DNA of 64,000 nucleotides from NCBI GenBank assembly GCA_031392695.1, contig JANMVM010000106.1, positions 697-64,696 of the forward strand, in the 5' to 3' direction. The notes beneath the pieces were generated by a model, which was not told the origin of the DNA, searched no databases, and saw only the letters and a list, made by a program, of their open reading frames with translations. A program made the position numbers and the translations under genes. Below, piece after piece: positions 17,799 through 29,658 of this stretch. Every line of letters starts with the position of its first letter. Position 1 is the first letter of the stretch. This DNA is from Rubrivivax sp. GTDB lineage: Bacteria; Pseudomonadota; Gammaproteobacteria; Burkholderiales; Burkholderiaceae_C.

Positions 17799-18785
<987 letters not shown>

Positions 18786-18852
18786 CGTGCGCTCCGGGTC
18801 TGCTGTGGGCAGGCGCAGGTTAGCGCATCGCGGCGGCGGCTGCACACGCGCT

Positions 18853-19351: not shown

Positions 19352-20038
19352 TCAGTTCGTCGCGAAGCAGTAGAAGCGCCCGGCACCGCCGGTGCGCACC
19401 AGGGCTTCCTGGCTGCAGCCGGCCGACGGGTGCGAGAAGTTCCAGGACGTGGCCCAGTTCTCGGGCAGCGGCCCATTGCGGTCGTGGTGGCCGACGATGG
19501 CCGAGCCGTCGCCGCTGCTCGTCCAGGCCTTGCACGTGGTGTCGCCCTGCGGTGAGAAGGCGGTGCCATCCGCGCGCGAGCCGGTCAGGATGTCGTGTTC
19601 GTTGGGCTGGTCGCCGCGGCCCTTGATCGGATTGCCGCGCTCGTCGAGCGCCGTGTCCTTGCCGATCAGGTTGCCGTTGTGCAGATGGGCCACATCGCGC
19701 GCGATCAGCGCACCCTTGGCGTTGAACCAGGGGCCGCTGCCGATGCGGTCGCGGGCGTGGGTGGACGCCACGCCCGGCGTGCTGCCCTGCGGGAAGGCAG
19801 CCGGCACGCTGAGGTAGGCGCGCCAGGTCCGGCCACCGACGCCGGCCGCGGCGGCCAGCTTCTGGCACTGCGCATCGGCGCCGGTCAGCCCGCCCAGGTC
19901 GGCGCCCTTGCCGCTGCCGGCGCTGGTGATGAAGAAACCCATCGGCCCCGTCGGTGGCGACCTGGCGCAGGCGCCCAGCAGTGCGCAAGCGGCGGTGATC
20001 AGGCTCAGGGTTCGGGTTCGGGTTCGGATCAAGCGCAT
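19352..20038 (-). CDS. Secreted lipoprotein with endostatin/C-type-lectin-like fold
   Basis: Lipobox LGAC. Motifs DLGGLTGADAQCQKLA, TWRAYLS, ARDRIGSGPW, HDILTGS, GRFYCFA. Confidence 0.75.
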   Translation of the reverse strand: MRLIRTRTRTLSLITAACALLGACARSPPTGPMGFFITSAGSGKGADLGGLTGADAQCQKLAAAAGVGGRTWRAYLSVPAAFPQGSTPGVASTHARDRIGSGPWFNAKGALIARDVAHLHNGNLIGKDTALDERGNPIKGRGDQPNEHDILTGSRADGTAFSPQGDTTCKAWTSSGDGSAIVGHHDRNGPLPENWATSWNFSHPSAGCSQEALVRTGGAGRFYCFATN

Positions 20039-20244
20039 GGGACGATTCCTCGGGTGGTGGGTGTAGACCCGAGGATTACGATTGACAGTCGTGTTTCATG
20101 CCTCAGGGTGTTCCCGGGTTCGGCTTGAAACAGAATGCACACCGGCAGCCGCAAAGCACCGGCGCGGCCCACCGCGGCTAAACCCGCTGCTGCGATGCGC
20201 CATCGATCGCTACCCTCGACACCCACAACGGCAGGAGACCGACC

Positions 20245-21168
20245 ATGAGACTCACCCCCGCTCAACTCGAACAGTTCGACCGCGACGGCTACCTCTTCTT
20301 CCCCGGCCTGTTCACGCCCGAGGAAACCGCGCGCCTGAACAATGCCGTGCCGGCCCTCTATGAGCGCCGCGAGGCCTACAACGTGCGCGAAAAAGGCAAG
20401 GACGCGGTGCGCACCAACTTCGCCGCGCACCTGACCAGCGAGCCCTTCGCGCGCCTGGCCCGCCACCCGCGCATGATCGAGCCGGTGGAAGACCTGCTGG
20501 GCGAGAAGCTCTACATGCACCAGTTCAAGATCAACGGCAAGATGGCCTTCGAAGGCGACGTCTGGCAGTGGCACCAGGACTACGGCACCTGGAAGAACGA
20601 CGACCTCATGCCCACCGAGCGGGCCATGAACGTGGCCATCTTCCTGGACGAGGTGAACGAGTTCAACGGGCCGCTGATGTTCATCCCCGGCAGCCACCGG
20701 GGTGGCGTCGTTGAAGCCCAACACGATCTCACCACCACCAGCTACCCGCTGTGGACGGTGGACCACGATCTGATCACGCAGCTCGTGGCGCGCGCCGGGG
20801 GCCCCGGCGGCTTCGACGACGCCGGTCGCTATGTACCGGGGGGCATCGTCAGCCCGAAGGGCCCGGCCGGCTCGATGATCCTCTTCCACAGCTGCATGGT
20901 GCACGCCAGCACCAGCAACCTGAGCCCCTGGAACCGCGTCAGCGTCTACCTGAGCCTGTGCGCGGTCAGCAACCACATCCGCCGCCCCAAGCGGCCCGAA
21001 TACATCGCCCACCGCGACTTCACGCCCATCGCCTGCCTGCCCGACGATTGCCTGCTGCAGGACTACGCGGTCAACGTGCCGTGGCAGCACGGCCTGCCGG
21101 CCAGCGCGCTGGTGACGAGCGAAGTGCCATTCGAAACCGCAGCCGCACAAGTCAAGGAAACCGCCTGA
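20245..21168 (+). CDS. PhyH/EctD-like Fe(II)/2OG dioxygenase
   Basis: YMHQFKINGK, WQWHQDYGTWKNDDLMP, FLDEVNEFNGPL, PGSH, distal VHAS. Confidence 0.9.
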   Translation: MRLTPAQLEQFDRDGYLFFPGLFTPEETARLNNAVPALYERREAYNVREKGKDAVRTNFAAHLTSEPFARLARHPRMIEPVEDLLGEKLYMHQFKINGKMAFEGDVWQWHQDYGTWKNDDLMPTERAMNVAIFLDEVNEFNGPLMFIPGSHRGGVVEAQHDLTTTSYPLWTVDHDLITQLVARAGGPGGFDDAGRYVPGGIVSPKGPAGSMILFHSCMVHASTSNLSPWNRVSVYLSLCAVSNHIRRPKRPEYIAHRDFTPIACLPDDCLLQDYAVNVPWQHGLPASALVTSEVPFETAAAQVKETA

Positions 21169-22517
21169 TGAGCCTGCACCGCAAGCTGGCCGAGCGCGCC
21201 GCCGCCGGGCGACCGATTCGCGTCGGCCTGATCGGCGCCGGCAAGTTCGGCAGCATGTACCTGGCCCAGGTGCCACGCACGCCGGGCGTGCACCTGGTGG
21301 GCATCGCCGACCTCGCGCCCGATGCCGCCTGCCGCAACCTGGCGCGCGTCGGCTGGGAGCCGCAGCGCGTGCAGGCTGCGAGCCTGGACGCGGCCTTGCG
21401 CGACGGCAACACCCACGTCGGTGACGACTGGCAGGCGCTGGTGCGCCACCCCGGCATCGACCTCATCGTCGAGAGCACCGGCGCGCCGATCGCCGCCGTC
21501 GACCACATCCTTGAAGCCTTCGCGCAAGGCAAGCACGTCGTCAACGTGACGGTCGAGGCCGACGCATTCTGCGGCCCGCTTCTGGCGCAGCGGGCGGCGC
21601 GCGCGGGGGTGCTGTACTCGCTGGCCTTCGGCGACCAGCCGGCGCTGATCTGCGACCTGGTGGACTGGGCGCGCACCTGCGGCTTCCCGGTGGTGGCGGC
21701 CGGGCGCGGCCACAAATGGCTGCCGCACTTCAGCGACAGCACGCCCGAGACGGTGTGGGGCCACTACGGCCTGACGCCCGAGCAGGCCGCGCGCGGCGGC
21801 CTGAATCCGAAGATGTTCAACAGCTTCCTCGACGGCAGCAAGCCCAGCATCGAGTGCACCGCGGTGGCCAACGCCACCGGGCTGGCGGTGCCCGGCAACG
21901 GTCTGCTCTACCCGCCGGCCAGCGTCGAGGACATCCCCTTCGTCACGCGCCCGATCAGCGAGGGCGGTGTGCTCGAGAAAAAAGGCATGGTCGAGGTCAT
22001 CTCGTCGCTGGAAACCGACGGCCGCCGGATCCCCTATGACATCCGCATGGGCGTGTGGGTCACGGTCGAGGGCGAGACCGAGTACATCCGCAACTGCTTC
22101 GAGGAATACAACGCCCACACCGACCCCTCGGGCCGCTACTTCACGCTCTACAAGCGCTGGCACCTGATCGGACTGGAGGTCGGCTACTCGGTGGCCAGCG
22201 TGATGCTGCGCCAGGAAGCCACTGGGGTTGCGCAGGGCTGGAATGCCGACGTCGTGGCCACCGCCAAGCGCGACCTCGCGGTGGGCGAGGTGCTCGACGG
22301 CGAAGGCGGCTACACGGTGTGGGGCAAGCTGTTGCCGGCCGCCACCTCGCGCGCGCTGGGCGGCGTCGGCGGTCTGCCGCTGGGGCTGGCGCACGGGCCG
22401 AAGCTGGTGCGCGCGGTGAAGAAGGGGCAGAGCCTGAGCTGGGCCGACGTGGCCATCGACACCACGACCCGGGCCTACACATTGCGGCGCGAGATGGAGC
22501 AGCTGTTCACCGCCTGA
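21168..22517 (+). CDS. NAD(P)-dependent oxidoreductase, homoserine-dehydrogenase-like with C-terminal SAF domain
   Basis: GLIGAGKFG Rossmann motif, GDQPALIC, SFLDGSK, AKRDLAVGEVLDGEGGY SAF segment. Start overlaps the dioxygenase stop (TGATG). Confidence 0.88.
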   Translation: MSLHRKLAERAAAGRPIRVGLIGAGKFGSMYLAQVPRTPGVHLVGIADLAPDAACRNLARVGWEPQRVQAASLDAALRDGNTHVGDDWQALVRHPGIDLIVESTGAPIAAVDHILEAFAQGKHVVNVTVEADAFCGPLLAQRAARAGVLYSLAFGDQPALICDLVDWARTCGFPVVAAGRGHKWLPHFSDSTPETVWGHYGLTPEQAARGGLNPKMFNSFLDGSKPSIECTAVANATGLAVPGNGLLYPPASVEDIPFVTRPISEGGVLEKKGMVEVISSLETDGRRIPYDIRMGVWVTVEGETEYIRNCFEEYNAHTDPSGRYFTLYKRWHLIGLEVGYSVASVMLRQEATGVAQGWNADVVATAKRDLAVGEVLDGEGGYTVWGKLLPAATSRALGGVGGLPLGLAHGPKLVRAVKKGQSLSWADVAIDTTTRAYTLRREMEQLFTA

Positions 22518-22562: not shown

Positions 22563-24260
22563 TCAGCCGGCGCCGATCAGCGCCTGCAGGGTCTGCAGCG
22601 TGTCGGCCTCGTGCAGCGGCTTGTCGTCGCGCAGGCGCAGCATGCGCGGGAAGCGCACTGCCACGCCGCTCTTGTGGCGCGGGCTGCGGTCGATGCCTTC
22701 GAAAGCGAGCTCGAACACGAGCGTCGGCCGCACGCTGCGCACGGGTCCGAACTTCTCCAGCGTGGTGGCGCGGATGACGCGGTCGACGGCCTTGAACTCG
22801 TCGTCGCTCAGGCCCGAGTAGGCCTTGGCAAAAGGCAGCAACTGCAACTGCGGCGATTCAGCCGGCGGCGCCGGGTCGCGCCGCGTGATGGCTTCGAGCA
22901 CCGCCTGCGCTTCCTGCGCGCCGGCCGGTGCGCGGCTCCACACCGCGAAGGTGTAGTCGGTGTAGACGCTGGCGCGCCGGCCGTGCCCGGCCTGGGCGTA
23001 GACGAGCACGGCGTCCACCGTCAGCGGCTCGACCTTCCACTTCCACCAGGTGCCGTCGCTCTGGGTGCGGCCGCTGCCGTAGCGCGACGCCAGGTGCTTG
23101 AGCATGAAGCCTTCAACGCCGCGCTGGCGCGACTGCTGGCGCAAGGTCGCCAGCGCCGTCCAGTCCTCAGCCTGCACTTGGGGCGACAGGCGCAGCGGAC
23201 CCCCGCTGAGCAAGCTTTCAAGCCGCGCCCGGCGCCCGGCCTGCGGCTGCACGCGCAGGTCCTGGCCGGCCTGCTCCAGCAGGTCGTAGGCGACGAAGAC
23301 CACGGGTGCGTCGGCCAGCAGCTTGCGCGGCAGCGTCTTGCGGTTGAGGCGCTGCTGCAGCGTCTTGAAGGCCCCCGGCGTGTCGCTGCCGGCCGGCCAC
23401 ACCAGCAGCTCGCCGTCGAGCACCGTGCCCTCGGGCAAGGCGGCGGCCTGCGCCACCACCTCGGGGAATCGTTCGCTGACCAGCTCTTCGCCGCGCGACC
23501 AGATCCAGACCTGGCCGGCGCGTTTGACGATCTGGGCGCGCATGCCGTCGTACTTCCACTCGACGAGCCAGTCCTGCAGCGCGCCCAGCGTCTGCGGCTC
23601 GGCCTGCAGTGCGTGGGCCAGGAAGAAAGGGTAGGGCTGCCCCGTCGGGCCGCCACCACTGTCGGCAGCAGCGACGAGCTCGCGCCAGCGCGCGGCGCTG
23701 GGCGTGTGGCGCGCATCGGTCCAGCCCACCAGGCGCTGCGCCAGCAGCTGGGCGTCGAGGCCGGTCCAGGCGGCCAGCGCGCGCTGCACCAGCAGCTTGC
23801 CGACGCCAACGCGGAAGCCGCCGCCAATGAGCTTGACGAGCAGGAAACGCCCCGCCGCGTCGAGCTCGCCCCAATACGCCGCGAGCCGCTGCGACTGCTC
23901 GGCGCCTGCCAGGCCGCGCAGCGGCAGCAGGCGTTCTTGCAGCCACGCGGCCAGACCCAGCGGTTGCGCTGCGGCCTGGCCAGCCGGCGGCAGGATGAGG
24001 GCGATGGTCTCGGCGAGGTCGCCCACGGCCTGGTAGCAGGCGTCGAAGAGCCAGGCGTCGACGCCCGCCAGGCGGCAGGCGGCGTCGCGCATCACCACCG
24101 TGGGCACGAGCCGGCGTGGCTTGCCGCCGGCCAGGAAATACACCGCCCAGGCCGCGTCTTCGCCATCGGCCTGGGCGAAATAGCGCACCAGCGCGTCGAC
24201 CTTGTCGGCAGTGGCGGTGCTGGCGTCGAGCGCCTCGAAGAGCCCAGCGAAGGATTGCAT
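22563..24260 (-). CDS. ATP-dependent DNA ligase
   Basis: Motif I EWKYDGMRAQ, LDGEL, EGFMLK, WWKWK, GVAVRFPRM. Confidence 0.93.
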   Translation of the reverse strand: MQSFAGLFEALDASTATADKVDALVRYFAQADGEDAAWAVYFLAGGKPRRLVPTVVMRDAACRLAGVDAWLFDACYQAVGDLAETIALILPPAGQAAAQPLGLAAWLQERLLPLRGLAGAEQSQRLAAYWGELDAAGRFLLVKLIGGGFRVGVGKLLVQRALAAWTGLDAQLLAQRLVGWTDARHTPSAARWRELVAAADSGGGPTGQPYPFFLAHALQAEPQTLGALQDWLVEWKYDGMRAQIVKRAGQVWIWSRGEELVSERFPEVVAQAAALPEGTVLDGELLVWPAGSDTPGAFKTLQQRLNRKTLPRKLLADAPVVFVAYDLLEQAGQDLRVQPQAGRRARLESLLSGGPLRLSPQVQAEDWTALATLRQQSRQRGVEGFMLKHLASRYGSGRTQSDGTWWKWKVEPLTVDAVLVYAQAGHGRRASVYTDYTFAVWSRAPAGAQEAQAVLEAITRRDPAPPAESPQLQLLPFAKAYSGLSDDEFKAVDRVIRATTLEKFGPVRSVRPTLVFELAFEGIDRSPRHKSGVAVRFPRMLRLRDDKPLHEADTLQTLQALIGAG

Positions 24261-24285
24261 GGCGGCATCATGCCGCCTGGCGCGC

Positions 24286-24759
24286 TCAGGCGCTGGTGTC
24301 GGCCTCGGCGTCGCCCTCGGTGTCGACCTCGGGCACCGGTGCACGCACCACCGTCACCGGCACCGGGCTGTGGCGCAACAGCGCCAGCGTCACCGAGCCC
24401 AGGGCGGTGGCGCTGCCGCCCTCGCCGCTGGCGCCCATGAAGACCGCGTCGCAGCCGTAGTTCTCGATCAGGTCGACGAGCATGTGGCCGGGGTCGCCAC
24501 CGGCGACCTCGAGCTCGCAACGCGCGCCGGCTGCCGCGATCAGCGCCTCGGCCGGGGCCAGCTGGCTGGCGCCGACCGCGGCGCGCACGGCATCGAGCAC
24601 GCTGGCGTCGTGCACCACCACCACGTCGTACAAGGTGGGCGGCTCCTGCACGTTGGCCAGCACGAAGTCAGCCTGCAGCCCGGCGCGGCGCCACGACAGG
24701 GCCAGGTGCACGGCGGCCATGGCATCGGCCGAGCCGTCAACCGGCAGCAGAATCTTCAT
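24286..24759 (-). CDS. Universal stress protein
   Basis: ILLPVDGS N-terminus, GDP...CDAVFMGASG, LGSVTLALLRHSPVPVTVV. Confidence 0.9.
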   Translation of the reverse strand: MKILLPVDGSADAMAAVHLALSWRRAGLQADFVLANVQEPPTLYDVVVVHDASVLDAVRAAVGASQLAPAEALIAAAGARCELEVAGGDPGHMLVDLIENYGCDAVFMGASGEGGSATALGSVTLALLRHSPVPVTVVRAPVPEVDTEGDAEADTSA

Positions 24760-24889
24760 CGGGGTCTCCAGTGCAAGGATGCAATGCGGCCAGCCTACGC
24801 CCTGGCGGCGGCGCGCGCCAGCGGGCCGGGCCCGCGTCGGCAGCCGCGTTGACGCGGGTCAAACATCGACCGGCTGATCGGCCCCGGCA

Positions 24890-25981
24890 TCAGCGCCGAG
24901 GTCTGGCGCCGAGGTCTGGTGCCGGATCCAGCGTCGCGACTTCCGGCGCTTCGTCGTCGTGGCCGAACTCGGTGCTGAAGCTGCCCGCCTGCAGGCCCTG
25001 CTGCTGCAGCCAGCGCACCATCACGGCTTCGTAGCCGTGGGTCACGATGACGCGGCTGGCTGAAGTTGCCACGATGGCGCGCTGCAGGCCGGGCCAGTCG
25101 GCGTGGTCGCTGAGCACGAAGCCACGGTCGAGGCCCTGGCGCCGGCGCGCGCCGCGCAGTTGCATCCAGCCGCTGGCAAACGCGTCGCTGCACTCGCCGA
25201 GCTGGCGCGCCCAGGCGCTGCCCAGCACCGCAGGCGGCGCGATGACGAGCGCGCGGCGCAGCACGGCGCGGTCGTCCAGATCCTGCAGCCGGCGCGTCGC
25301 CGGCAGCGCCACGCCGGCGGCGCGATAGGCCTCGTTCAGCGGCTCCACCGCGCTGTGCGTGACGATGGGGCCGATCGACGCGTCCACCCCCGCCAGCAGG
25401 CGCTGCGCCTTGCCCAAGCTGTAGCCCAGCAGCAGGCTGGCGCGGCCGGTGTCGGCATTGGCCTGCCACCAGGCGTTGATCTGCGCCATCACTTCGGCCT
25501 GGGGCCGCCAGCGGTAGATCGGCAGGCCGAAGGTGCTTTCGGTGATGAAGCAATCGCAGCGCACCGGCTCGAAGGGCGTGCAGGTGCTGTTGACGTCGTC
25601 GGCGTGGCCGCTCGTGAAGTAGTCGCCCGAGGCGACCCAGACGCGGCCACCGTGCTCGACGCGCACCTGGGCCGAGCCGAGCACGTGGCCGGCCGGGTGC
25701 AGGCTGACGCGCACGCCGGCCAGGTCCACCACTTCGCCGTAGCGCAGGCCCTGCAGCGTGATGGCGCCCAGGCGCGCGCGCAGCACGCCTTCGCTCGCCG
25801 CCGTGGCCAGGTAGGCGCCATGGCCGCGGCGGGCATGGTCGGCGTGGGCGTGGGTGATGACGGCGCGCTCGACGGGCCGCCAGGGGTCGATGAAAAAGCC
25901 GCCGGCGGGGCAGTAGAGCCCCTCGGGCCGCAGCACGATGAGGTCGCCGGCGGAGTCCGCTGCGCTCGCCACGGCGGCCAC
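24890..25981 (-). CDS. Ligase-associated DNA damage response exonuclease (MBL/beta-CASP)
   Basis: ITHAHADHAR, PAGHVLGS, ITESTFGLP, LSDHADW. Confidence 0.92.
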   Translation of the reverse strand: MAAVASAADSAGDLIVLRPEGLYCPAGGFFIDPWRPVERAVITHAHADHARRGHGAYLATAASEGVLRARLGAITLQGLRYGEVVDLAGVRVSLHPAGHVLGSAQVRVEHGGRVWVASGDYFTSGHADDVNSTCTPFEPVRCDCFITESTFGLPIYRWRPQAEVMAQINAWWQANADTGRASLLLGYSLGKAQRLLAGVDASIGPIVTHSAVEPLNEAYRAAGVALPATRRLQDLDDRAVLRRALVIAPPAVLGSAWARQLGECSDAFASGWMQLRGARRRQGLDRGFVLSDHADWPGLQRAIVATSASRVIVTHGYEAVMVRWLQQQGLQAGSFSTEFGHDDEAPEVATLDPAPDLGARPRR

Positions 25982-25985
25982 GGCT

Positions 25986-27059
25986 TCAGCGCGGTGAGCG
26001 GGGCGAGCGCGGCATCAGGAAGGTCTGGCGCAGGTCGAGCGTCGAGCGCACGCCGACGCTGGCGCGGTGCGCGTGCAGCCAGCGTTCGGCAGCGGCACGG
26101 CCCAGCGCATGCAGCGCTTCGAGGAAGGCGCGCTCGGTGTTGAGCTTGCTCGACGCGGTCAGCGGCGCCAGGCCTTCCTCGTCGGCCACCATGTGCAGGC
26201 GCAGGTTCTTGTACTCGCCCGGCTCGACGCGACCCTCGTCGACCAGCTTCTGCACGAAGGCGATGGCGCGCATCTCGCCCACGAGACCGGCGTTGAAGGT
26301 GATCTCGTTGATGCGGTCGGCGATCTCCTCGGCCGTGTCGGGCGTGCCCGGTCGCAGCAGCGGATTGATCTTGACCAGCAGCACGTCGAGCGCCTCGGTG
26401 TTGTAGATCAGCGGCCAGAGCGCCGGGTTGCCGCTGTAGCCGCCGTCCCAGTAGGGCTGGCCGTCGATCTCGACGGCGCGAAAGAGCTGCGGCAGGCAGG
26501 CCGAAGCCAGCAGCGCGTCGATGCTCAGGTCTTGACGGTCGAAGACCCGCGGCTGGCCCGTCTGCACCGAGGTGGCGGTGATGAACAGCGCCAGCGGCCC
26601 GTGGCGCAGCACCTGCGGCTGGACGTGGCGCTGCAGCACCTGGCGCAGCGGGTTGCTGCCCAGCGGGTTGAACTGGTAGGGGCTGAACCAGCGCGTGAAC
26701 TGCTGCGTCCAGGCATAGAAGGGATTCATGTCGAGGTTGAAGCCGGCGATGCCGGCTGGCGCGCCGAAGCAACCACCCAGCGCTGTGGACTGGCCGGCGA
26801 CGTCGAGCCAGAAGGCGCGCAGCGCGGCCTGCGCACCGCTGCGCCCGCCGCTGGCCCAGCCGGTGGCCAGCACGGCTGCATTGAGCGCGCCGGCACTGGT
26901 GCCCGAGATGCCCGCGATGGGCAGCGTGGTGTCGTCGAGCAGGCGGTCGAGAACGCCCCAGGTGAAGGCGCCGTGCGAGCCGCCGCCTTGCAGGGCCAGG
27001 TCGATGGCGGCGTGCGGACGTTGGCTGCGCGTGAGGCGGGGGGTGCGGGGTTTGGCCAT
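25986..27059 (-). CDS. Patatin-like phospholipase
   Basis: QGGGSHG, GTSAG nucleophile elbow, DGG motif. Confidence 0.92.
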   Translation of the reverse strand: MAKPRTPRLTRSQRPHAAIDLALQGGGSHGAFTWGVLDRLLDDTTLPIAGISGTSAGALNAAVLATGWASGGRSGAQAALRAFWLDVAGQSTALGGCFGAPAGIAGFNLDMNPFYAWTQQFTRWFSPYQFNPLGSNPLRQVLQRHVQPQVLRHGPLALFITATSVQTGQPRVFDRQDLSIDALLASACLPQLFRAVEIDGQPYWDGGYSGNPALWPLIYNTEALDVLLVKINPLLRPGTPDTAEEIADRINEITFNAGLVGEMRAIAFVQKLVDEGRVEPGEYKNLRLHMVADEEGLAPLTASSKLNTERAFLEALHALGRAAAERWLHAHRASVGVRSTLDLRQTFLMPRSPRSPR

Positions 27060-27119
27060 GGCCGGAGGTTAACCGCGCCGCCCGGGACACGCGCCGGGCC
27101 GACGCGCGCGACTTCGACT

Positions 27120-28391
27120 TCAGTAACGCCCGGTGATACCGGCCACGCGCAGGTAGACGTTGGCCACCCAGGCCACCAGCACGCGGTGCATCCAGCCGCG
27201 CAGGCCGGGACGCACGGGGGGGTCGGCAACCTCGGCCGAGGCCGCGAAGGCTTCTTCAAAGCGCGCCAACAGCGCGCGCGCGAACTCGGCGTCGCGCACC
27301 ACGACATTGGCCTCCAGATTGAGCAACAGGCTCAGCGGATCGATGTTGCTGCTGCCCACGGTGGCCCAGTCCTCGTCCACCACCGCCACCTTGGCGTGCA
27401 GGAAGGCCGGCGTGTACTCGAAGATGCGGATGCCGGTGCCGCGCATCTCGCCGTACAGCGCCTGCGCCGCGAGTGCGGCGATGCGGTAATCGACCTTGCC
27501 CTGCAGCAGGAGCCGCACGCGCACGCCGCGCCGGGCCGCCCGGCGCAGCGCGGTGCGAAAGCCATGGCCGGGGTAGAAGTAGGGCACCGCGATGTCGACG
27601 CTCACGCGCGCATGGCGGATCGCCTCGACGTAGCTGCGCTCGATCGAGCGGCGCTGGCGCAGGTTGTCGCGCACCAGGAATGCGGCGCGCACCGGCTCGG
27701 GCTCGACGTCGGCCGGCGGCTCGGGGCTGCTGCTCAGGTCGCGCAGCAGCGTCATCGCCTCTTTCACCGGCCGCGCGCTGCGCGCGATCGCGCGCACCTC
27801 GTCGCGCCAGCCGCGCCACAGGTGCGAGCGGGCCCACATCGCGCGCGCCGTGGCTTGCACGGCCTGCGCCAGAGGGCCCTCCACCGCGACCGCGAAGTCC
27901 AGCCGCGGCGCGTCGGTCCAGCCGTGGTTCATGTCGTGGCGGTCGTCGATGATGTTGATGCCGCCGACGAAGGCCAGCTTGTCGTCGCACACACACAGCT
28001 TCTGGTGCAGCCGCCGCAACTGGCCCGGTTGCAGCCACGCGTACCAGCGGTCGAGCGGGCGGAAGACCTCCAGCCGCACCGCGGTGCCGGCGAACATGGC
28101 GCGCACCCGGCCCAGGGTGGCGATGGAGCCGAAGCCGTCGACCACCACGTGCACCGCGACGCCGCGCGCGGCGGCGAGCTTGAGCGCATCGGCCACCAGC
28201 GTGGCAGCCGGGTCGTCGTGGAAGATGTAGGTCGCCAGCCAGACCTCGCGTTGTGCTGCGGCAATGGCCTGGCACATGCGCGGGAACAGTGCATCACCGC
28301 CCTGCAGCAGTTCGACCCGGTTGCCGCCCAGGAAGCGCGGCACCGGCACCTGGGCCCAGCCCTGGAGTGTGGCGCGCAGCGGTTCGGGCAT
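27120..28391 (-). CDS. clsB: Cardiolipin synthase B
   Basis: Two HKD-type motifs (LHQKLCVCD, LHAKVAVVD), GSSNID, no N-terminal TM helices, downstream of an EEP gene as in ybhP-clsB. Confidence 0.88.
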   Translation of the reverse strand: MPEPLRATLQGWAQVPVPRFLGGNRVELLQGGDALFPRMCQAIAAAQREVWLATYIFHDDPAATLVADALKLAAARGVAVHVVVDGFGSIATLGRVRAMFAGTAVRLEVFRPLDRWYAWLQPGQLRRLHQKLCVCDDKLAFVGGINIIDDRHDMNHGWTDAPRLDFAVAVEGPLAQAVQATARAMWARSHLWRGWRDEVRAIARSARPVKEAMTLLRDLSSSPEPPADVEPEPVRAAFLVRDNLRQRRSIERSYVEAIRHARVSVDIAVPYFYPGHGFRTALRRAARRGVRVRLLLQGKVDYRIAALAAQALYGEMRGTGIRIFEYTPAFLHAKVAVVDEDWATVGSSNIDPLSLLLNLEANVVVRDAEFARALLARFEEAFAASAEVADPPVRPGLRGWMHRVLVAWVANVYLRVAGITGRY

Positions 28392-28396
28392 GGCGC

Positions 28397-29194
28397 TCAG
28401 TCGGCTTCGAGCTCGGCCACCAGCGGCAGGTGGTCGGACATGCGCGCCCAGCTCACGCCGCGCGGCACCAGGGTCGTGCGGCAGATCAGGCCGCGCAAGT
28501 AGAAGCGGTCGAGCGCAAACAGCGGCGCGATCGAGGGAAAGGTGGCGGCCCGGTCGGCCGGGCCGGCCGCGACGGCACGGTGCAGCCCCAGGGCTTGCAT
28601 CGGCGCATCGAGCCGCTCGCCCCAGTCGTTGAAGTCGCCGGCCACCACCAGCATGGCATCGGCCGGCACTTCGGTCTTGAGGAAGTGGGCCAGGCGCTGC
28701 ACCTGGCGCACGCGGCCGGCATGGCCGAGACCGAAGTGCACCACCACGGCGTGCACGGTGCTGCCGTTCCAGATCACCGGCACATGCAGCAGGCCGCGTT
28801 GCTCGAAGCGGTGGTCACTGACGTCGTGGTGGCCGACGTCACCCATCGGCCAGCGCGACAACAGCGCATTGCCGTGCTCGCCACCGCGCGTGACGGCGTT
28901 GGTGCGGTAGGCCACCTCGTAGCCTTCGGGCGCCAGGAACTCGGCCTGACCCTGCGCGGGCCAGCCGAAGTGCGTGCGCTCGAAACGGCGCGCTTCGCGG
29001 TGGTGGAACAGGCGCACCTCCTGCAGAAACACGAGGTCGGCGTCCAGTGCTTCGACGGCCAGCCCGAGGTTGTGGATCTCCAACCGCTTGCGCGGCCCCA
29101 GCCCGCGCACGCCCTTGTGGATGTTGTAGGTGGCCACGCGCAGCGCGCTCAGGCCAGTGTAGGGCGGCAGCTGAGACGACAGCGGTGGGTTCAT
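28397..29194 (-). CDS. Endonuclease/exonuclease/phosphatase family protein (YbhP-like)
   Basis: ATYNIHKG, LQEV, GDFNDW, SDHLPL. Confidence 0.92.
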   Translation of the reverse strand: MNPPLSSQLPPYTGLSALRVATYNIHKGVRGLGPRKRLEIHNLGLAVEALDADLVFLQEVRLFHHREARRFERTHFGWPAQGQAEFLAPEGYEVAYRTNAVTRGGEHGNALLSRWPMGDVGHHDVSDHRFEQRGLLHVPVIWNGSTVHAVVVHFGLGHAGRVRQVQRLAHFLKTEVPADAMLVVAGDFNDWGERLDAPMQALGLHRAVAAGPADRAATFPSIAPLFALDRFYLRGLICRTTLVPRGVSWARMSDHLPLVAELEAD

Positions 29195-29658
29195 GGCGGT
29201 GCGGCCGCTGCCGGCAGGCGGCCGGGCAGTTGCAGGATGGCCGCCGCATTGCTGGGCGAGAAACAGCGCGCCGCGGCTTCGCGCCACGGCAGCCACACGC
29301 TGGCCAGGTGCTCGCGCGGGCTCAGCGTCACCGCCACCCGACCCGCGACGGTGAGGCCGAACACGTGTTCGGTGTTCTGGCTCACGCCCGGCGCGTAGCG
29401 GTGGCGCCAGACGGGGTAGATCTCGTAGACCGTGGACAGGCCCCAGTCGCGCAGCTCGCCGCTGCCGATGCCGGTCTCTTCGGCGACCTCGCGGCGCGCG
29501 GTGACTTCCAGCGCCTCGTCCTCGGCGTCGAGCGAGCCGGTCACGCTCTGCCAGGAGCCGGGCCGGTCGGCACGCTCGATGAGCAGCACCTCCAGCGCGG
29601 GCGTGTGGATGACCACCAGCACCGAGCGGGGGATCTTGAACGGGCCCGGCCTGGCCAC
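29191..29658 (-). CDS. nudB: Dihydroneopterin triphosphate diphosphatase (Nudix)
   Basis: KIPRSVLVVI, WQSVTGS, AxREVxEETG Nudix box, NTEHVF. Downstream of aspS. Confidence 0.9.
   Translation of the reverse strand: MARPGPFKIPRSVLVVIHTPALEVLLIERADRPGSWQSVTGSLDAEDEALEVTARREVAEETGIGSGELRDWGLSTVYEIYPVWRHRYAPGVSQNTEHVFGLTVAGRVAVTLSPREHLASVWLPWREAAARCFSPSNAAAILQLPGRLPAAAAPP

What the first reader, a model, noticed from the sequence alone, without database searches (positions are those of the whole stretch)
20245..22517. Translationally coupled EctD-like hydroxylase and SAF-domain dehydrogenase with no ectoine genes: unknown two-step oxidation
Seen: TGATG coupling. The dioxygenase signature WQWHQDYGTWKNDDLMP resembles but differs from the EctD signature (FxWHSDFETWHxEDG[M/L]P), and no ectABC or eut genes are in the window. 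Known: the SAF-containing homoserine-dehydrogenase-like family is largely without assigned substrates. Inference: hydroxylation then NAD-dependent oxidation of a cyclic amino acid or osmolyte (proline, pipecolate or ectoine-like), i.e. an undescribed catabolic entry route.
Basis: partly seen in the sequence, partly recalled or inferred. Interest (0 to 1): 0.6.

Follow-up and report, generated by a model that had tools for sequence, protein, structure and literature searches.

The report
Orphan amino-acid hydroxylase–dehydrogenase gene pair
Two overlapping genes encode an iron/2-oxoglutarate hydroxylase built like the free-amino-acid hydroxylases and an NAD-type dehydrogenase from an uncharacterised sister family of an isoprenoid enzyme; the pair is conserved in hundreds of soil and freshwater bacteria, is not ectoine hydroxylase, and its substrate is still unknown.

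Summary
Window 20245-21168 (+) encodes a 307-aa PhyH-family Fe(II)/2OG dioxygenase. Window 21168-22517 (+) encodes a 449-aa Rossmann + DRL_cat + SAF oxidoreductase. The two genes overlap in TGATG.

The dioxygenase is not EctD. It scores 156.8 bits against a 336.5-bit cut-off, and no EctC was found in the genome. Its nearest solved relatives are trans-3/4-proline hydroxylase H11 and leucine 5-hydroxylase GriE.

The partner has the fold of Brucella DXR-II but the residues of the uncharacterised DLO sister family. The genome has a canonical Dxr.

The pair is adjacent in 70-73 of 78 close relatives, mostly with 4- or 1-nt overlaps, and again in distant classes of the phylum. In 45 of 74 loci a GntR/FCD regulator precedes it, with a conserved palindromic operator. 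The window's copy has lost both.

Every genome found with the hydroxylase also has a DLO, but not the reverse.

My best reading is a repressor-controlled catabolic module: C-H hydroxylation of a free amino-acid-like carboxylate, then NAD-dependent oxidation of the new hydroxyl. The substrate is unresolved.

This scan flagged the same pair in at least ten other genomes, and one follow-up reached the same verdict.

The parts
20039..20244 (+). Upstream intergenic region. It has no adjacent GntR gene and no copy of the relatives' operator; only a weak right half-site (ACAGA) remains, at 20130-20134.
   Evidence: Scan for TCTGTNNACAGA allowing up to 3 mismatches; no sigma-70 consensus promoter found.
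20233..20237 (+). Shine-Dalgarno-like AGGAG, 7 nt before the ATG of gene 1.
   Evidence: Sequence read directly.
20245..21168 (+). Gene 1: 307-aa Fe(II)/2-oxoglutarate dioxygenase of the PhyH family (P0001), in the clade of free-amino-acid hydroxylases.
   Evidence: PF05721 at 3e-32. PDB sequence hits: H11 1.7e-53, GriE 1.5e-49, EctD 6.5e-37. AF2 model pLDDT 93.7; Foldseek top hits H11/GriE, TM about 0.9 normalised to the target.
20563..20613 (+). Motif WQWHQDYGTWKNDDLMP (residues 107-123). It holds the iron ligands H110 (20572-20574) and D112 (20578-20580), and T115/W116 at the positions that contact ligand in EctD.
   Evidence: H110 and D112 are invariant in 52 relatives.
20902..20994 (+). 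Distal iron ligand H220 (20902-20904), 2OG-binding R231 (20935-20937), and R250 of the RPEY motif (20992-20994). R250 aligns with GriE Arg242 and EctD Arg280, which bind the substrate carboxylate.
   Evidence: Alignments; conservation; GriE residues from PMC5676206; EctD residues from PMC6890836.
21154..21170 (+). AAGGAA Shine-Dalgarno inside the end of gene 1, plus the TGATG stop/start overlap: the translational coupling site.
   Evidence: tight coupling is conserved in about 51 of 70 related loci.
21168..22517 (+). Gene 2: 449-aa DXR-II-like oxidoreductase (DLO; P0002), with a Rossmann domain, a DRL catalytic domain and a C-terminal SAF domain.
   Evidence: PF21135 1.3e-53, PF03447, PF08666. 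Brucella DRL 3UPY 4.7e-58. AF2 pLDDT 93.3; Foldseek TM 0.90-0.93 to 3UPL/3UPY, next hits TM about 0.4.
21225..21311 (+). Dinucleotide-binding GLIGAGKFG (residues 20-28) and Asp48 at the end of strand beta-2. This is the NAD-type signature; Brucella DRL has S-A-R-R at this place.
   Evidence: Alignment. D48 is invariant in 98 homologues. Cofactor preference is inferred from the general Rossmann-fold rule.
21705..21845 (+). Active-site signatures R180-G-H182-K183-W184 and S224-K225-P226, at the positions of DRL Lys191, Lys193 and Thr229 (the fosmidomycin anchors).
   Evidence: residue roles from PMC3847144.
22248..22451 (+). SAF domain (residues 361-428).
   Evidence: PF08666 4.5e-05, above the gathering score.

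Best explanation
The two genes form one expression unit that carries out two successive oxidations on a small carboxylate, most likely a free alpha-amino acid or a close analogue. Gene 1 uses Fe(II), 2-oxoglutarate and O2 to hydroxylate an unactivated C-H of a substrate held by its carboxylate on Arg250. Gene 2, an NAD-type member of the uncharacterised DLO sister family of DXR-II, then oxidises the new hydroxyl to an aldehyde or ketone, which enters central metabolism or rearranges spontaneously.

The dehydrogenase is the more widespread partner and presumably also acts on the hydroxylated compound when that comes from outside. The hydroxylase is a feeder that extends the route to the non-hydroxylated precursor.

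In most relatives a FadR-type GntR repressor, binding a palindrome before its own gene, controls the module. That is the pattern of an inducible catabolic operon. In this genome the regulator and operator are gone, so the pair is probably expressed constitutively or under other control.

Shown: fold, catalytic residues, family placement, coupling, and conservation of the pair, the regulator and the operator. Inferred: the nature of the substrate, the order of the reactions, NAD preference and the catabolic role.
For: Family and fold:
- PhyH with an intact H110/D112/H220 triad, R231 and R250.
- The nearest solved structures are the proline hydroxylase H11 and the leucine hydroxylase GriE, ahead of EctD.
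- All EctD ligand-contact positions (Gln127, His144, Thr149, Trp150, Arg280, Leu284) are matched by Q93, H110, T115, W116, R250 and I254, so the pocket is built for an amino-acid-like carboxylate.

Support from near paralogues (37-45% identity):
- Natural fusions exist of PhyH with a zinc alcohol dehydrogenase, with alanine racemase and with a methyltransferase.
- One paralogue lies beside a LivF-type ABC ATPase.

The partner:
- DRL fold, TM 0.9, NAD-type Asp48 invariant.

Linkage:
- Adjacent in 70 of 80 nearest loci, plus 3 with a gap.
- Adjacent in 20 of 26 genomes in an order-wide sample.
- GntR-P1-P2 occurs in six genomes of other classes; in a seventh, P2 lies 6 kb away.
- Overlapping or 0-7 nt stop-start spacing in about 51 of 70 loci.

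Distribution:
- All 26 P1-bearing genomes in the order sample and all 9 in the phylum sample also carry a DLO.
- 21 and about 14 genomes respectively carry a DLO without P1.

Regulation:
- GntR/FCD lies directly upstream in 45 of 74 loci.
- The palindrome GTAyTCTGTATACAGAGTAC occurs once per locus in 34 loci, and is the only site in the complete genome G486.

Precedent: GriE (hydroxylase) then GriF (NAD dehydrogenase) convert Leu to 5-hydroxyleucine and then to the semialdehyde (PMC5676206).
Against: - No substrate is identified.
- No transporter or downstream enzyme is universally linked to the pair. The accessory genes vary: a tartronate-semialdehyde-reductase-like dehydrogenase in 15 of 64 loci, an Amidohydro_3 protein in 7-10, a HAD type II hydrolase, an EamA transporter and a TauD protein in single lineages.
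- P2 of the P1-linked type survives without P1 in one family (79% identity, directly after aceE). P1 also occurs without an adjacent P2 in 5-6 lineages, so the coupling is not obligatory.
- The order of reactions could be the reverse, or P2 could reduce a carbonyl made by oxidative deamination, as in KanJ/KanK (own knowledge).
- NAD preference rests on a sequence rule only.
- No DLO has ever been characterised.
- The RNA contigs laid on the region came from relatives, and none was shown to bridge the junction.
Confidence: 0.55

Rival explanations
1. Gene 1 is a plain ectoine hydroxylase (EctD) making 5-hydroxyectoine, and gene 2 is an unrelated neighbour.
For: JGI labels many homologues 'ectoine hydroxylase'. 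TIGR02408 is the best NCBIfam hit. The EctD ligand-contact positions are conserved.
Against: - TIGR02408 scores 156.8 bits against a cut-off of 336.5.
- Only 8 of the 15 specified positions of the EctD signature match.
- H11 and GriE are closer than EctD in both sequence and structure.
- No EctC was found in the genome.
- There are no ect or eut genes in the window.
- The gene is linked to a DLO and a GntR, not to ectABC, in about 90% of relatives.
Confidence: 0.04
2. The pair is biosynthetic. It makes a modified amino acid, such as a methyl- or oxo-proline or a hydroxy amino acid, as a building block or a compatible solute, as GriE/GriF do for 4-methylproline.
For: The closest two-enzyme precedent (GriE/GriF) is biosynthetic. 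Fusions of PhyH with Zn-ADH and of PhyH with a methyltransferase exist among paralogues.
Against: No NRPS, reductase (ProC/GriH-like) or export genes are linked in any of about 110 loci examined. The module is headed by a FadR-type GntR repressor with an autoregulatory operator, which is typical of catabolic operons. It is present in small-genome freshwater planktonic genera such as Limnohabitans.
Confidence: 0.15
3. Oxidative deamination or dealkylation route. Gene 1 hydroxylates a carbon bearing an amine, a methylamine or a sulfonate, which then collapses to an aldehyde or ketone. Gene 2 reduces or oxidises that carbonyl (KanJ/KanK-like or TauD-like logic).
For: PhyH-family enzymes are known to do this (KanJ; own knowledge). 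A homoserine-dehydrogenase-like enzyme is suited to semialdehyde/alcohol interconversion. A tartronate-semialdehyde-reductase-like gene often follows the pair. Sulfur-related neighbours appear sporadically: cysK in the window, metC in L012, TauD in L019.
Against: The nearest relatives (H11, GriE, EctD) all give stable alcohols. The sulfur neighbours are not conserved. There is no direct evidence.
Confidence: 0.15
4. Gene 2 is a DXR-II (alternative DXP reductoisomerase) for isoprenoid synthesis, and gene 1 is unrelated.
For: The only solved and the only characterised homologue is Brucella DXR-II, with TM 0.9 and about 31% identity.
Against: - The diagnostic DXR-II residues are replaced: Gly121 to Ala, Lys193 to His, Thr229 to Pro, His250 to Leu. 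Pro at 229 and a hydrophobic residue at 250 are DLO states according to PMC3847144.
- Tested DLO members did not complement a dxr mutant.
- The genome has a canonical Dxr, 475 bits against a cut-off of 315.7.
- The NAD-type Asp48 stands where the NADPH-type S-A-R-R of DRL lies.
Confidence: 0.02

Closest known systems
Trans-3/4-proline hydroxylase H11 (PDB 7DZZ, 7E00-7E09, 8H7T-8H85)
   Same: Best sequence and structure match to gene 1: phmmer 1.7e-53; Foldseek E 1e-31, 37-38% identity, TM 0.9 normalised to the target. It shares the HxD...H triad, the 2OG-binding Arg and the RPEY Arg.
   Different: P0001 has Y-G-T-W-K where H11 has Y-T-F-W-H, has Leu121 instead of the EDG glycine, and carries a 40-aa C-terminal extension. 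It is only about 38% identical, so the same substrate cannot be assumed. H11 has no linked DLO that I know of.
GriE/GriF of griselimycin biosynthesis (leucine 5-hydroxylase + NAD-dependent zinc dehydrogenase; PDB 5NCH-5NCJ)
   Same: GriE is the second-closest solved homologue (1.5e-49, 35-36% identity). GriE His110, Asp112, His210 and Arg242 align with H110, D112, H220 and R250. The logic is the same: hydroxylate a free amino acid, then oxidise the alcohol with NAD+. A natural PhyH + Zn-ADH fusion exists among paralogues.
   Different: The dehydrogenase here is a DLO (DRL fold), not a zinc MDR. There is no reductase and no NRPS context. The module is under a GntR repressor and is spread over hundreds of non-producer genomes, so it is probably catabolic.
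Ectoine hydroxylase EctD (PDB 3EMR, 4MHR, 4Q5O; TIGR02408)
   Same: Same PhyH subfamily. All six ligand-contact positions of Sphingopyxis EctD are conserved. Identity is 30-31%.
   Different: It scores below half of the family cut-off. Seven of 15 signature positions differ. It has no ect genes as neighbours, and no EctC was found in the genome.
Brucella abortus DRL / DXR-II (PDB 3UPL, 3UPY) and its DLO1/DLO2 sister families (Carretero-Paulet 2013, PMC3847144)
   Same: Gene 2 has the same three-domain fold (TM 0.90-0.93) and the same Pfam DRL_cat domain.
   Different: It has DLO-type residues at positions 121, 229 and 250, His at the place of Lys193, and an NAD-type Asp instead of the NADPH-type Arg pair. 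DLO families have no known substrate, and tested members lack DXR activity.
CsiR-CsiD-LhgO glutarate hydroxylation module (own knowledge; not tested here)
   Same: Same architecture and logic: a GntR/FCD repressor, a Fe(II)/2OG hydroxylase, then a dehydrogenase or oxidase acting on the hydroxylated product, forming a catabolic entry route.
   Different: CsiD and LhgO belong to other protein families, and the substrate there is a dicarboxylate, not an amino acid. This is a resemblance of design only.

Membership tests
Fe(II)/2OG dioxygenase, PhyH family (PF05721) | Pfam score above the gathering threshold; HxD...H iron triad; Arg binding the C5 carboxylate of 2OG. | tested here: met
   113.1 bits against a threshold of 22. 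H110, D112, H220 and R231 are invariant or nearly so in 52 relatives.
Ectoine hydroxylase EctD (TIGR02408) | Equivalog model score at or above 336.5 bits. | tested here: not met
   156.8 bits.
Ectoine hydroxylase EctD (TIGR02408) | 17-residue signature F-x-W-H-S-D-F-E-T-W-H-x-E-D-G-[ML]-P. | tested here: not met
W-Q-W-H-Q-D-Y-G-T-W-K-N-D-D-L-M-P matches 8 of the 15 specified positions.
Ectoine hydroxylase EctD (TIGR02408) | Genomic association with ectABC, or the presence of ectoine synthase in the genome. | tested here: not met
   No ect genes in the window. PF06339 was not found in the 92%-complete genome, but the search had no positive control.
Free-amino-acid hydroxylase clade (H11, GriE) | Arg of the RPEY loop that salt-bridges the substrate carboxylate (GriE Arg242). 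| tested here: met
   R250 aligns with GriE Arg242 (PMC5676206). It is present in 50 of 52 relatives.
Free-amino-acid hydroxylase clade (H11, GriE) | Demonstrated hydroxylation of a free amino acid. | not testable with these tools
   Needs an enzyme assay.
DXR-II (DRL) 1-deoxy-D-xylulose-5-phosphate reductoisomerase | Conserved Gly121, Lys191, Lys193, Thr229 and His250 of the Brucella enzyme. | tested here: not met
   The aligned residues are Ala110, Arg180, His182, Pro226 and Leu247.
DXR-II (DRL) 1-deoxy-D-xylulose-5-phosphate reductoisomerase | Supplies DXR activity, typically where it is needed. | tested here: not met
   A canonical Dxr is present in the same genome. Complementation itself cannot be tested here.
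DLO (DXR-II-like oxidoreductases, PF21135 fold without DXR residues) | DRL_cat domain and DRL fold, with non-DXR residues at positions 121, 229 and 250. | tested here: met
   PF21135 at 181.8 bits. TM 0.9 to 3UPL. Ala, Pro and Leu at the three positions, as described for DLO proteins.
Homoserine dehydrogenase | Family model score above the cut-off; Homoserine_dh catalytic domain. | tested here: not met
   NF004976 scores 25.4 bits against a cut-off of 205, and only the NAD-binding region matches. Foldseek TM to ThrA is about 0.4.

The most novel reading that the evidence does not exclude
The GntR-PhyH-DLO module is an undescribed inducible catabolic entry route for a common amino-acid-like compound in soil and freshwater Proteobacteria. 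It would give the first physiological substrate to the DLO family, the sister of DXR-II, as dehydrogenases of hydroxylated amino acids. Two active-site variants (R-G-H-K-W/S-K-P and K-G-T-K-Y/T-K-S) would mark two specificities.
Probability: 0.4. Interest if true: 0.6.

Novelty: new variant of a known kind. Interest (0 to 1): 0.5.

Why it matters
The pair is common. More than 587 loci were found among species-representative genomes, and more than 8000 clusters in the protein collection. It is strongly conserved, at 75-90% identity across genera, yet it has no assigned function, and many databases mislabel it 'ectoine hydroxylase'.

Finding the substrate would do four things:
- correct that annotation;
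- give the first function to the DLO sister family of DXR-II;
- add a new member to the small set of 'hydroxylate then dehydrogenate' entry routes (CsiD/LhgO, GriE/GriF);
- supply a new regio-selective amino-acid hydroxylase for biocatalysis.

The conserved operator and the culturable hosts make the question directly testable.

Tried and rejected
I called genes myself from GC3 and clustered neighbours with BLAST.
- Literature searches found no characterisation of the pair or of any DLO. I searched PDB codes, DRL/DLO, COG4091/PF21135, PhyH + homoserine dehydrogenase + GntR, the H11 paper, and the genus names.
- The ESM Atlas gave only generic names.
- PhyH-DLO fusions: none. The three long homologues are fused to other domains.
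- A sulfur link was considered because cysK, metC and TauD appear as neighbours. I rejected it as lineage-specific.
- Regulon reconstruction with the operator found no further members. It gave a single site in G486, and sites at chance level elsewhere.
- The 1-mismatch site in the window's own genome lies before a PrpD-family gene and is probably unrelated.
- The sigma-70 promoter and terminator scan was uninformative in this 70% GC DNA. A sigma-54-like GG-N10-GC at 20144-20158, seen by eye, was not pursued.
- The four metatranscriptome contig sets hold fragments of 85-95% relatives of both genes but show neither the junction nor expression of this organism.
- The contexts of stand-alone DLO paralogues share nothing. 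Their neighbours include an aldehyde dehydrogenase, enolase, an HMGL-like protein, an MFS transporter and aceE.
Full report
**What is there**

The window is 69.7% GC. By GC3, the coding frames in the flagged stretch are 20245-21168 (+) and 21168-22517 (+).
- The first gene gives a 307-aa protein, P0001.
- The second gives a 449-aa protein, P0002, starting at the ATG that shares its A with the TGA of the first gene (TGATG, 21166-21170).
- Both starts have Shine-Dalgarno-like sequences: AGGAG seven bases before the first ATG, and AAGGAA eight bases before the second.

**The neighbours in the window are unrelated**

- Upstream, on the other strand, lie a 228-aa lipoprotein without family (19352-20038) and cysK (17799-18845).
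- Downstream, convergent, lie an ATP-dependent DNA ligase, a universal stress protein and the ligase-associated exonuclease. After them come patatin, phospholipase D and EEP-family genes, and aspS.
- There are no ectoine synthesis, uptake or degradation genes.
- No ectoine synthase family match was found in the 92%-complete genome, although that search had no positive control.

**Gene 1**

P0001 is a PhyH-family Fe(II)/2-oxoglutarate dioxygenase (PF05721, 3e-32).
- Its best NCBIfam hit is the EctD equivalog, but at 156.8 bits against a cut-off of 336.5. Only 8 of the 15 specified signature positions agree.
- Against solved structures, the order by sequence is trans-3/4-proline hydroxylase H11 (1.7e-53), leucine 5-hydroxylase GriE (1.5e-49), then EctD (6.5e-37).
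- An AlphaFold model (pLDDT 93.7) gives the same order by Foldseek: H11 37-38% identity, GriE 35-36%, EctD 30-31%.
- The iron triad H110/D112/H220 and the 2OG arginine R231 are invariant in 52 relatives. R250 of the RPEY loop is present in 50 of them.
- R250 aligns with GriE Arg242, which salt-bridges the leucine carboxylate (PMC5676206), and with EctD Arg280.
- The other EctD ligand contacts (Gln127, Thr149, Trp150, Leu284; PMC6890836) are matched by Q93, T115, W116 and I254.

The pocket is therefore built for a small amino-acid-like carboxylate, but the enzyme is neither EctD, H11 nor GriE.

Near paralogues (37-45% identity) occur as natural fusions with a zinc alcohol dehydrogenase, with alanine racemase and with a methyltransferase. 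One paralogue sits beside a LivF-type ABC ATPase. This fits amino-acid substrates, and it shows that 'hydroxylase plus alcohol dehydrogenase' is a recurring design in this clade.

**Gene 2**

P0002 has a Rossmann domain, the DRL catalytic domain (PF21135, 1.3e-53) and a SAF domain.
- The only solved homologue is Brucella abortus DRL, the DXR-II enzyme (4.7e-58).
- The AlphaFold model (pLDDT 93.3) superposes on it with TM 0.90-0.93. The next hits, Gfo/Idh/MocA and homoserine dehydrogenases, have TM about 0.4.
- Carretero-Paulet et al. (PMC3847144) split this family into DXR-II and two uncharacterised clades, DLO1 and DLO2, whose tested members lack DXR activity. They named diagnostic positions.
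- In P0002 those positions are of the DLO type. Gly121 is Ala, Thr229 is Pro, His250 is Leu, and the fosmidomycin anchors Lys191/Lys193 are Arg180/His182.
- The genome has a canonical Dxr (475 bits, cut-off 315.7).
- Asp48 at the end of strand beta-2, where DRL has Ser-Ala-Arg-Arg, is invariant in 98 homologues. By the usual Rossmann rule this points to NAD rather than NADPH; that is an inference.

P0002 is thus a DLO, not a DXR-II and not a homoserine dehydrogenase (25 bits against a cut-off of 205).

**Is the pair conserved?**

- *Order-wide sample (151 genomes).* 27 have a P0001 orthologue (62% identity or more) and 48 have a P0002 homologue. In 20 of the 26 other P1-bearing genomes the two are adjacent.
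- *Nearest loci.* Among the 80 nearest loci of a species-representative genome collection (587 or more relatives; all Comamonadaceae/Sphaerotilaceae-type Burkholderiales), P2 lies directly downstream in 70. It lies downstream with a gap or as a partial match in 3. Two loci are truncated, and five lack it.
- *Spacing.* The stop-start spacing is an ATGA overlap in 30 loci, TGATG in 4, and 0-7 nt in about 17.
- *Phylum-wide sample.* Seven genomes of other classes carry a P1 of 53-58% identity. Six of them have GntR-P1-P2 in a row, and in the seventh P2 lies 6 kb away.

The refutation criterion 'the pair is not conserved together' is therefore not met.

**Asymmetry between the partners**

Every P1-bearing genome found also has a DLO: 26 of 26 in the order sample and 9 of 9 in the phylum sample. 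In contrast, 21 and about 14 genomes respectively have a DLO without P1. These genomes are related, so the counts are descriptive and are not a statistical test.

DLO proteins fall into two sharply separated active-site types.
- The first type is A-A-G-R-G-H-K-W with D-G-S-K-P. It is found in all 81 proteins of 62% identity or more, and nearly all of these are P1-linked.
- The second type is K-G-T-K-Y with T-K-S. It is found in all 17 stand-alone Burkholderiales paralogues, and also in the P1-linked proteins of the distant classes.

In one family the first type sits 27 nt after aceE with no P1. In other genomes aceE-P1-P2 is found, so P1 looks to have been lost there.

I read this as a dehydrogenase with a function of its own and a hydroxylase that feeds it.

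**Regulation and accessory genes**

- A GntR/FCD (FadR-type) regulator lies directly upstream on the same strand in 45 of 74 loci with room for it.
- Just before that gene there is a 20-bp palindrome, GTAyTCTGTATACAGAGTAC. Its 12-mer core occurs exactly once per locus in 34 loci (1.19 Mb searched), and it is the only site with one mismatch or fewer in the complete genome G486. This is an autoregulated single-operon regulon, the usual pattern of an inducible catabolic module.
- A tartronate-semialdehyde-reductase-like dehydrogenase follows P2 in 15 of 64 loci, and an Amidohydro_3 protein follows in 7, plus 3 more after that dehydrogenase.
- A HAD type II hydrolase, an EamA transporter and a TauD protein appear in single lineages.
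- No transporter is conserved.

The window's copy has neither the GntR nor the operator. The best GntR match in the genome is only 44% identical and lies on another contig. Two genomes of the same family keep esterase-GntR-P1-P2. So this genome's pair has been moved or stripped of its regulator.

**Mechanism**

The best-supported reading has three steps:
- the substrate carboxylate binds on Arg250;
- Fe(IV)-oxo hydroxylates a beta-to-delta carbon, as in H11, GriE and EctD;
- the DLO then carries out NAD-dependent oxidation of the new alcohol.

This is the logic of GriE/GriF, but with a different dehydrogenase family and a catabolic type of control. It resembles the CsiR-CsiD-LhgO design (own knowledge).

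The fold, residues, linkage and regulator are shown. The substrate, reaction order, cofactor and catabolic role are inferred.

The rivals are an EctD function, a DXR-II function, a biosynthetic role, and an oxidative deamination/reduction route. They are weighed in their own sections; the first two are essentially excluded.

**Expression**

Contigs of four metatranscriptomes from four studies contain fragments 85-95% identical to both genes. They come from relatives, none was shown to bridge the junction, and DNA carry-over cannot be excluded. DNA runs holding half or more of the stretch's sampled words are sediment and freshwater-sediment metagenomes.

**Earlier notes of this scan**

The same pair has been flagged by first readers in at least ten other genomes. 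One follow-up (e1-5262137) reached the same verdict: an amino-acid hydroxylase plus an orphan dehydrogenase, closest to H11/GriE, substrate unknown. I reached my reading before seeing it. It agrees but is not independent evidence.

New here are:
- the operator;
- the two DLO active-site types;
- the 'P1 always with DLO' asymmetry;
- the conservation in other classes;
- the paralogue fusions;
- the loss of the regulator in this genome.

**Verdict**

This is a real, conserved, still orphan two-enzyme module. It is a new variant of the known 'hydroxylate then dehydrogenate' design, of moderate interest, and directly testable in culturable relatives.

Noticed in passing
L031:1560-1600 and 33 other related loci (for example L028, L039, L066); absent from window 20039-20244: A 20-bp palindrome GTAyTCTGTATACAGAGTAC lies just upstream of the GntR/FCD gene that heads the module. 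The exact 12-mer core occurs once per locus in 34 of 80 loci, and it is the only site at one mismatch or fewer in a complete relative genome. It is the likely operator of the regulator.
   Followed up: partly
P0253, P0234, P0215 (representative library hits of P0001): Near paralogues of the hydroxylase exist as natural fusions with a zinc alcohol dehydrogenase (636 aa), with alanine racemase (642 aa) and with a SAM methyltransferase (541 aa).
   Followed up: partly
window 22563-25981 (-): An ATP-dependent DNA ligase (593 aa), a universal stress protein and the ligase-associated DNA damage response exonuclease (TIGR04122, 468 bits) make up a ligase-associated repair cluster convergent with the pair.
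   Followed up: no
window 19352-20038 (-): A 228-aa predicted lipoprotein (lipobox LLGAC) has no family match; there is only a sub-threshold DUF1554 hit. It is divergent from the pair and is not found next to the pair in relatives.
   Followed up: no
window 25986-29296 (-): A run of lipid- and phosphoester-acting genes: a patatin-like phospholipase, a two-domain phospholipase D/cardiolipin synthase-like protein, and an endonuclease/exonuclease/phosphatase family protein.
   Followed up: no
L156:1501-1512 (own genome, contig C122:12947-12958): A one-mismatch copy of the operator core (TCCGTATACAGA) lies about 60 nt before a PrpD/MmgE-family gene. This is at chance level for the genome (the control pattern also gave one hit), so it is probably another GntR's site or chance.
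   Followed up: partly
L014 (G121:C2:238121-240945): This genome's copy of the hydroxylase has an in-frame TGA and is separated from the DLO gene by about 670 nt. It may be a decaying copy.
   Followed up: no
L020:8168-12099 (G129): A DLO of the P1-linked active-site type (79% identity) sits 27 nt after aceE with no hydroxylase gene. Other genomes have aceE-hydroxylase-DLO, so the hydroxylase seems to have been deleted cleanly here.
   Followed up: partly
L009:7204-7944 (G112): A HAD type II (2-haloacid dehalogenase family, TIGR01428 above the cut-off) gene overlaps the stop of the DLO gene. An earlier scan note reports HAD plus AlaX after the pair in another genome. Azetidine-2-carboxylate hydrolase belongs to this HAD group (own knowledge), which hints at proline analogues.
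   Followed up: no
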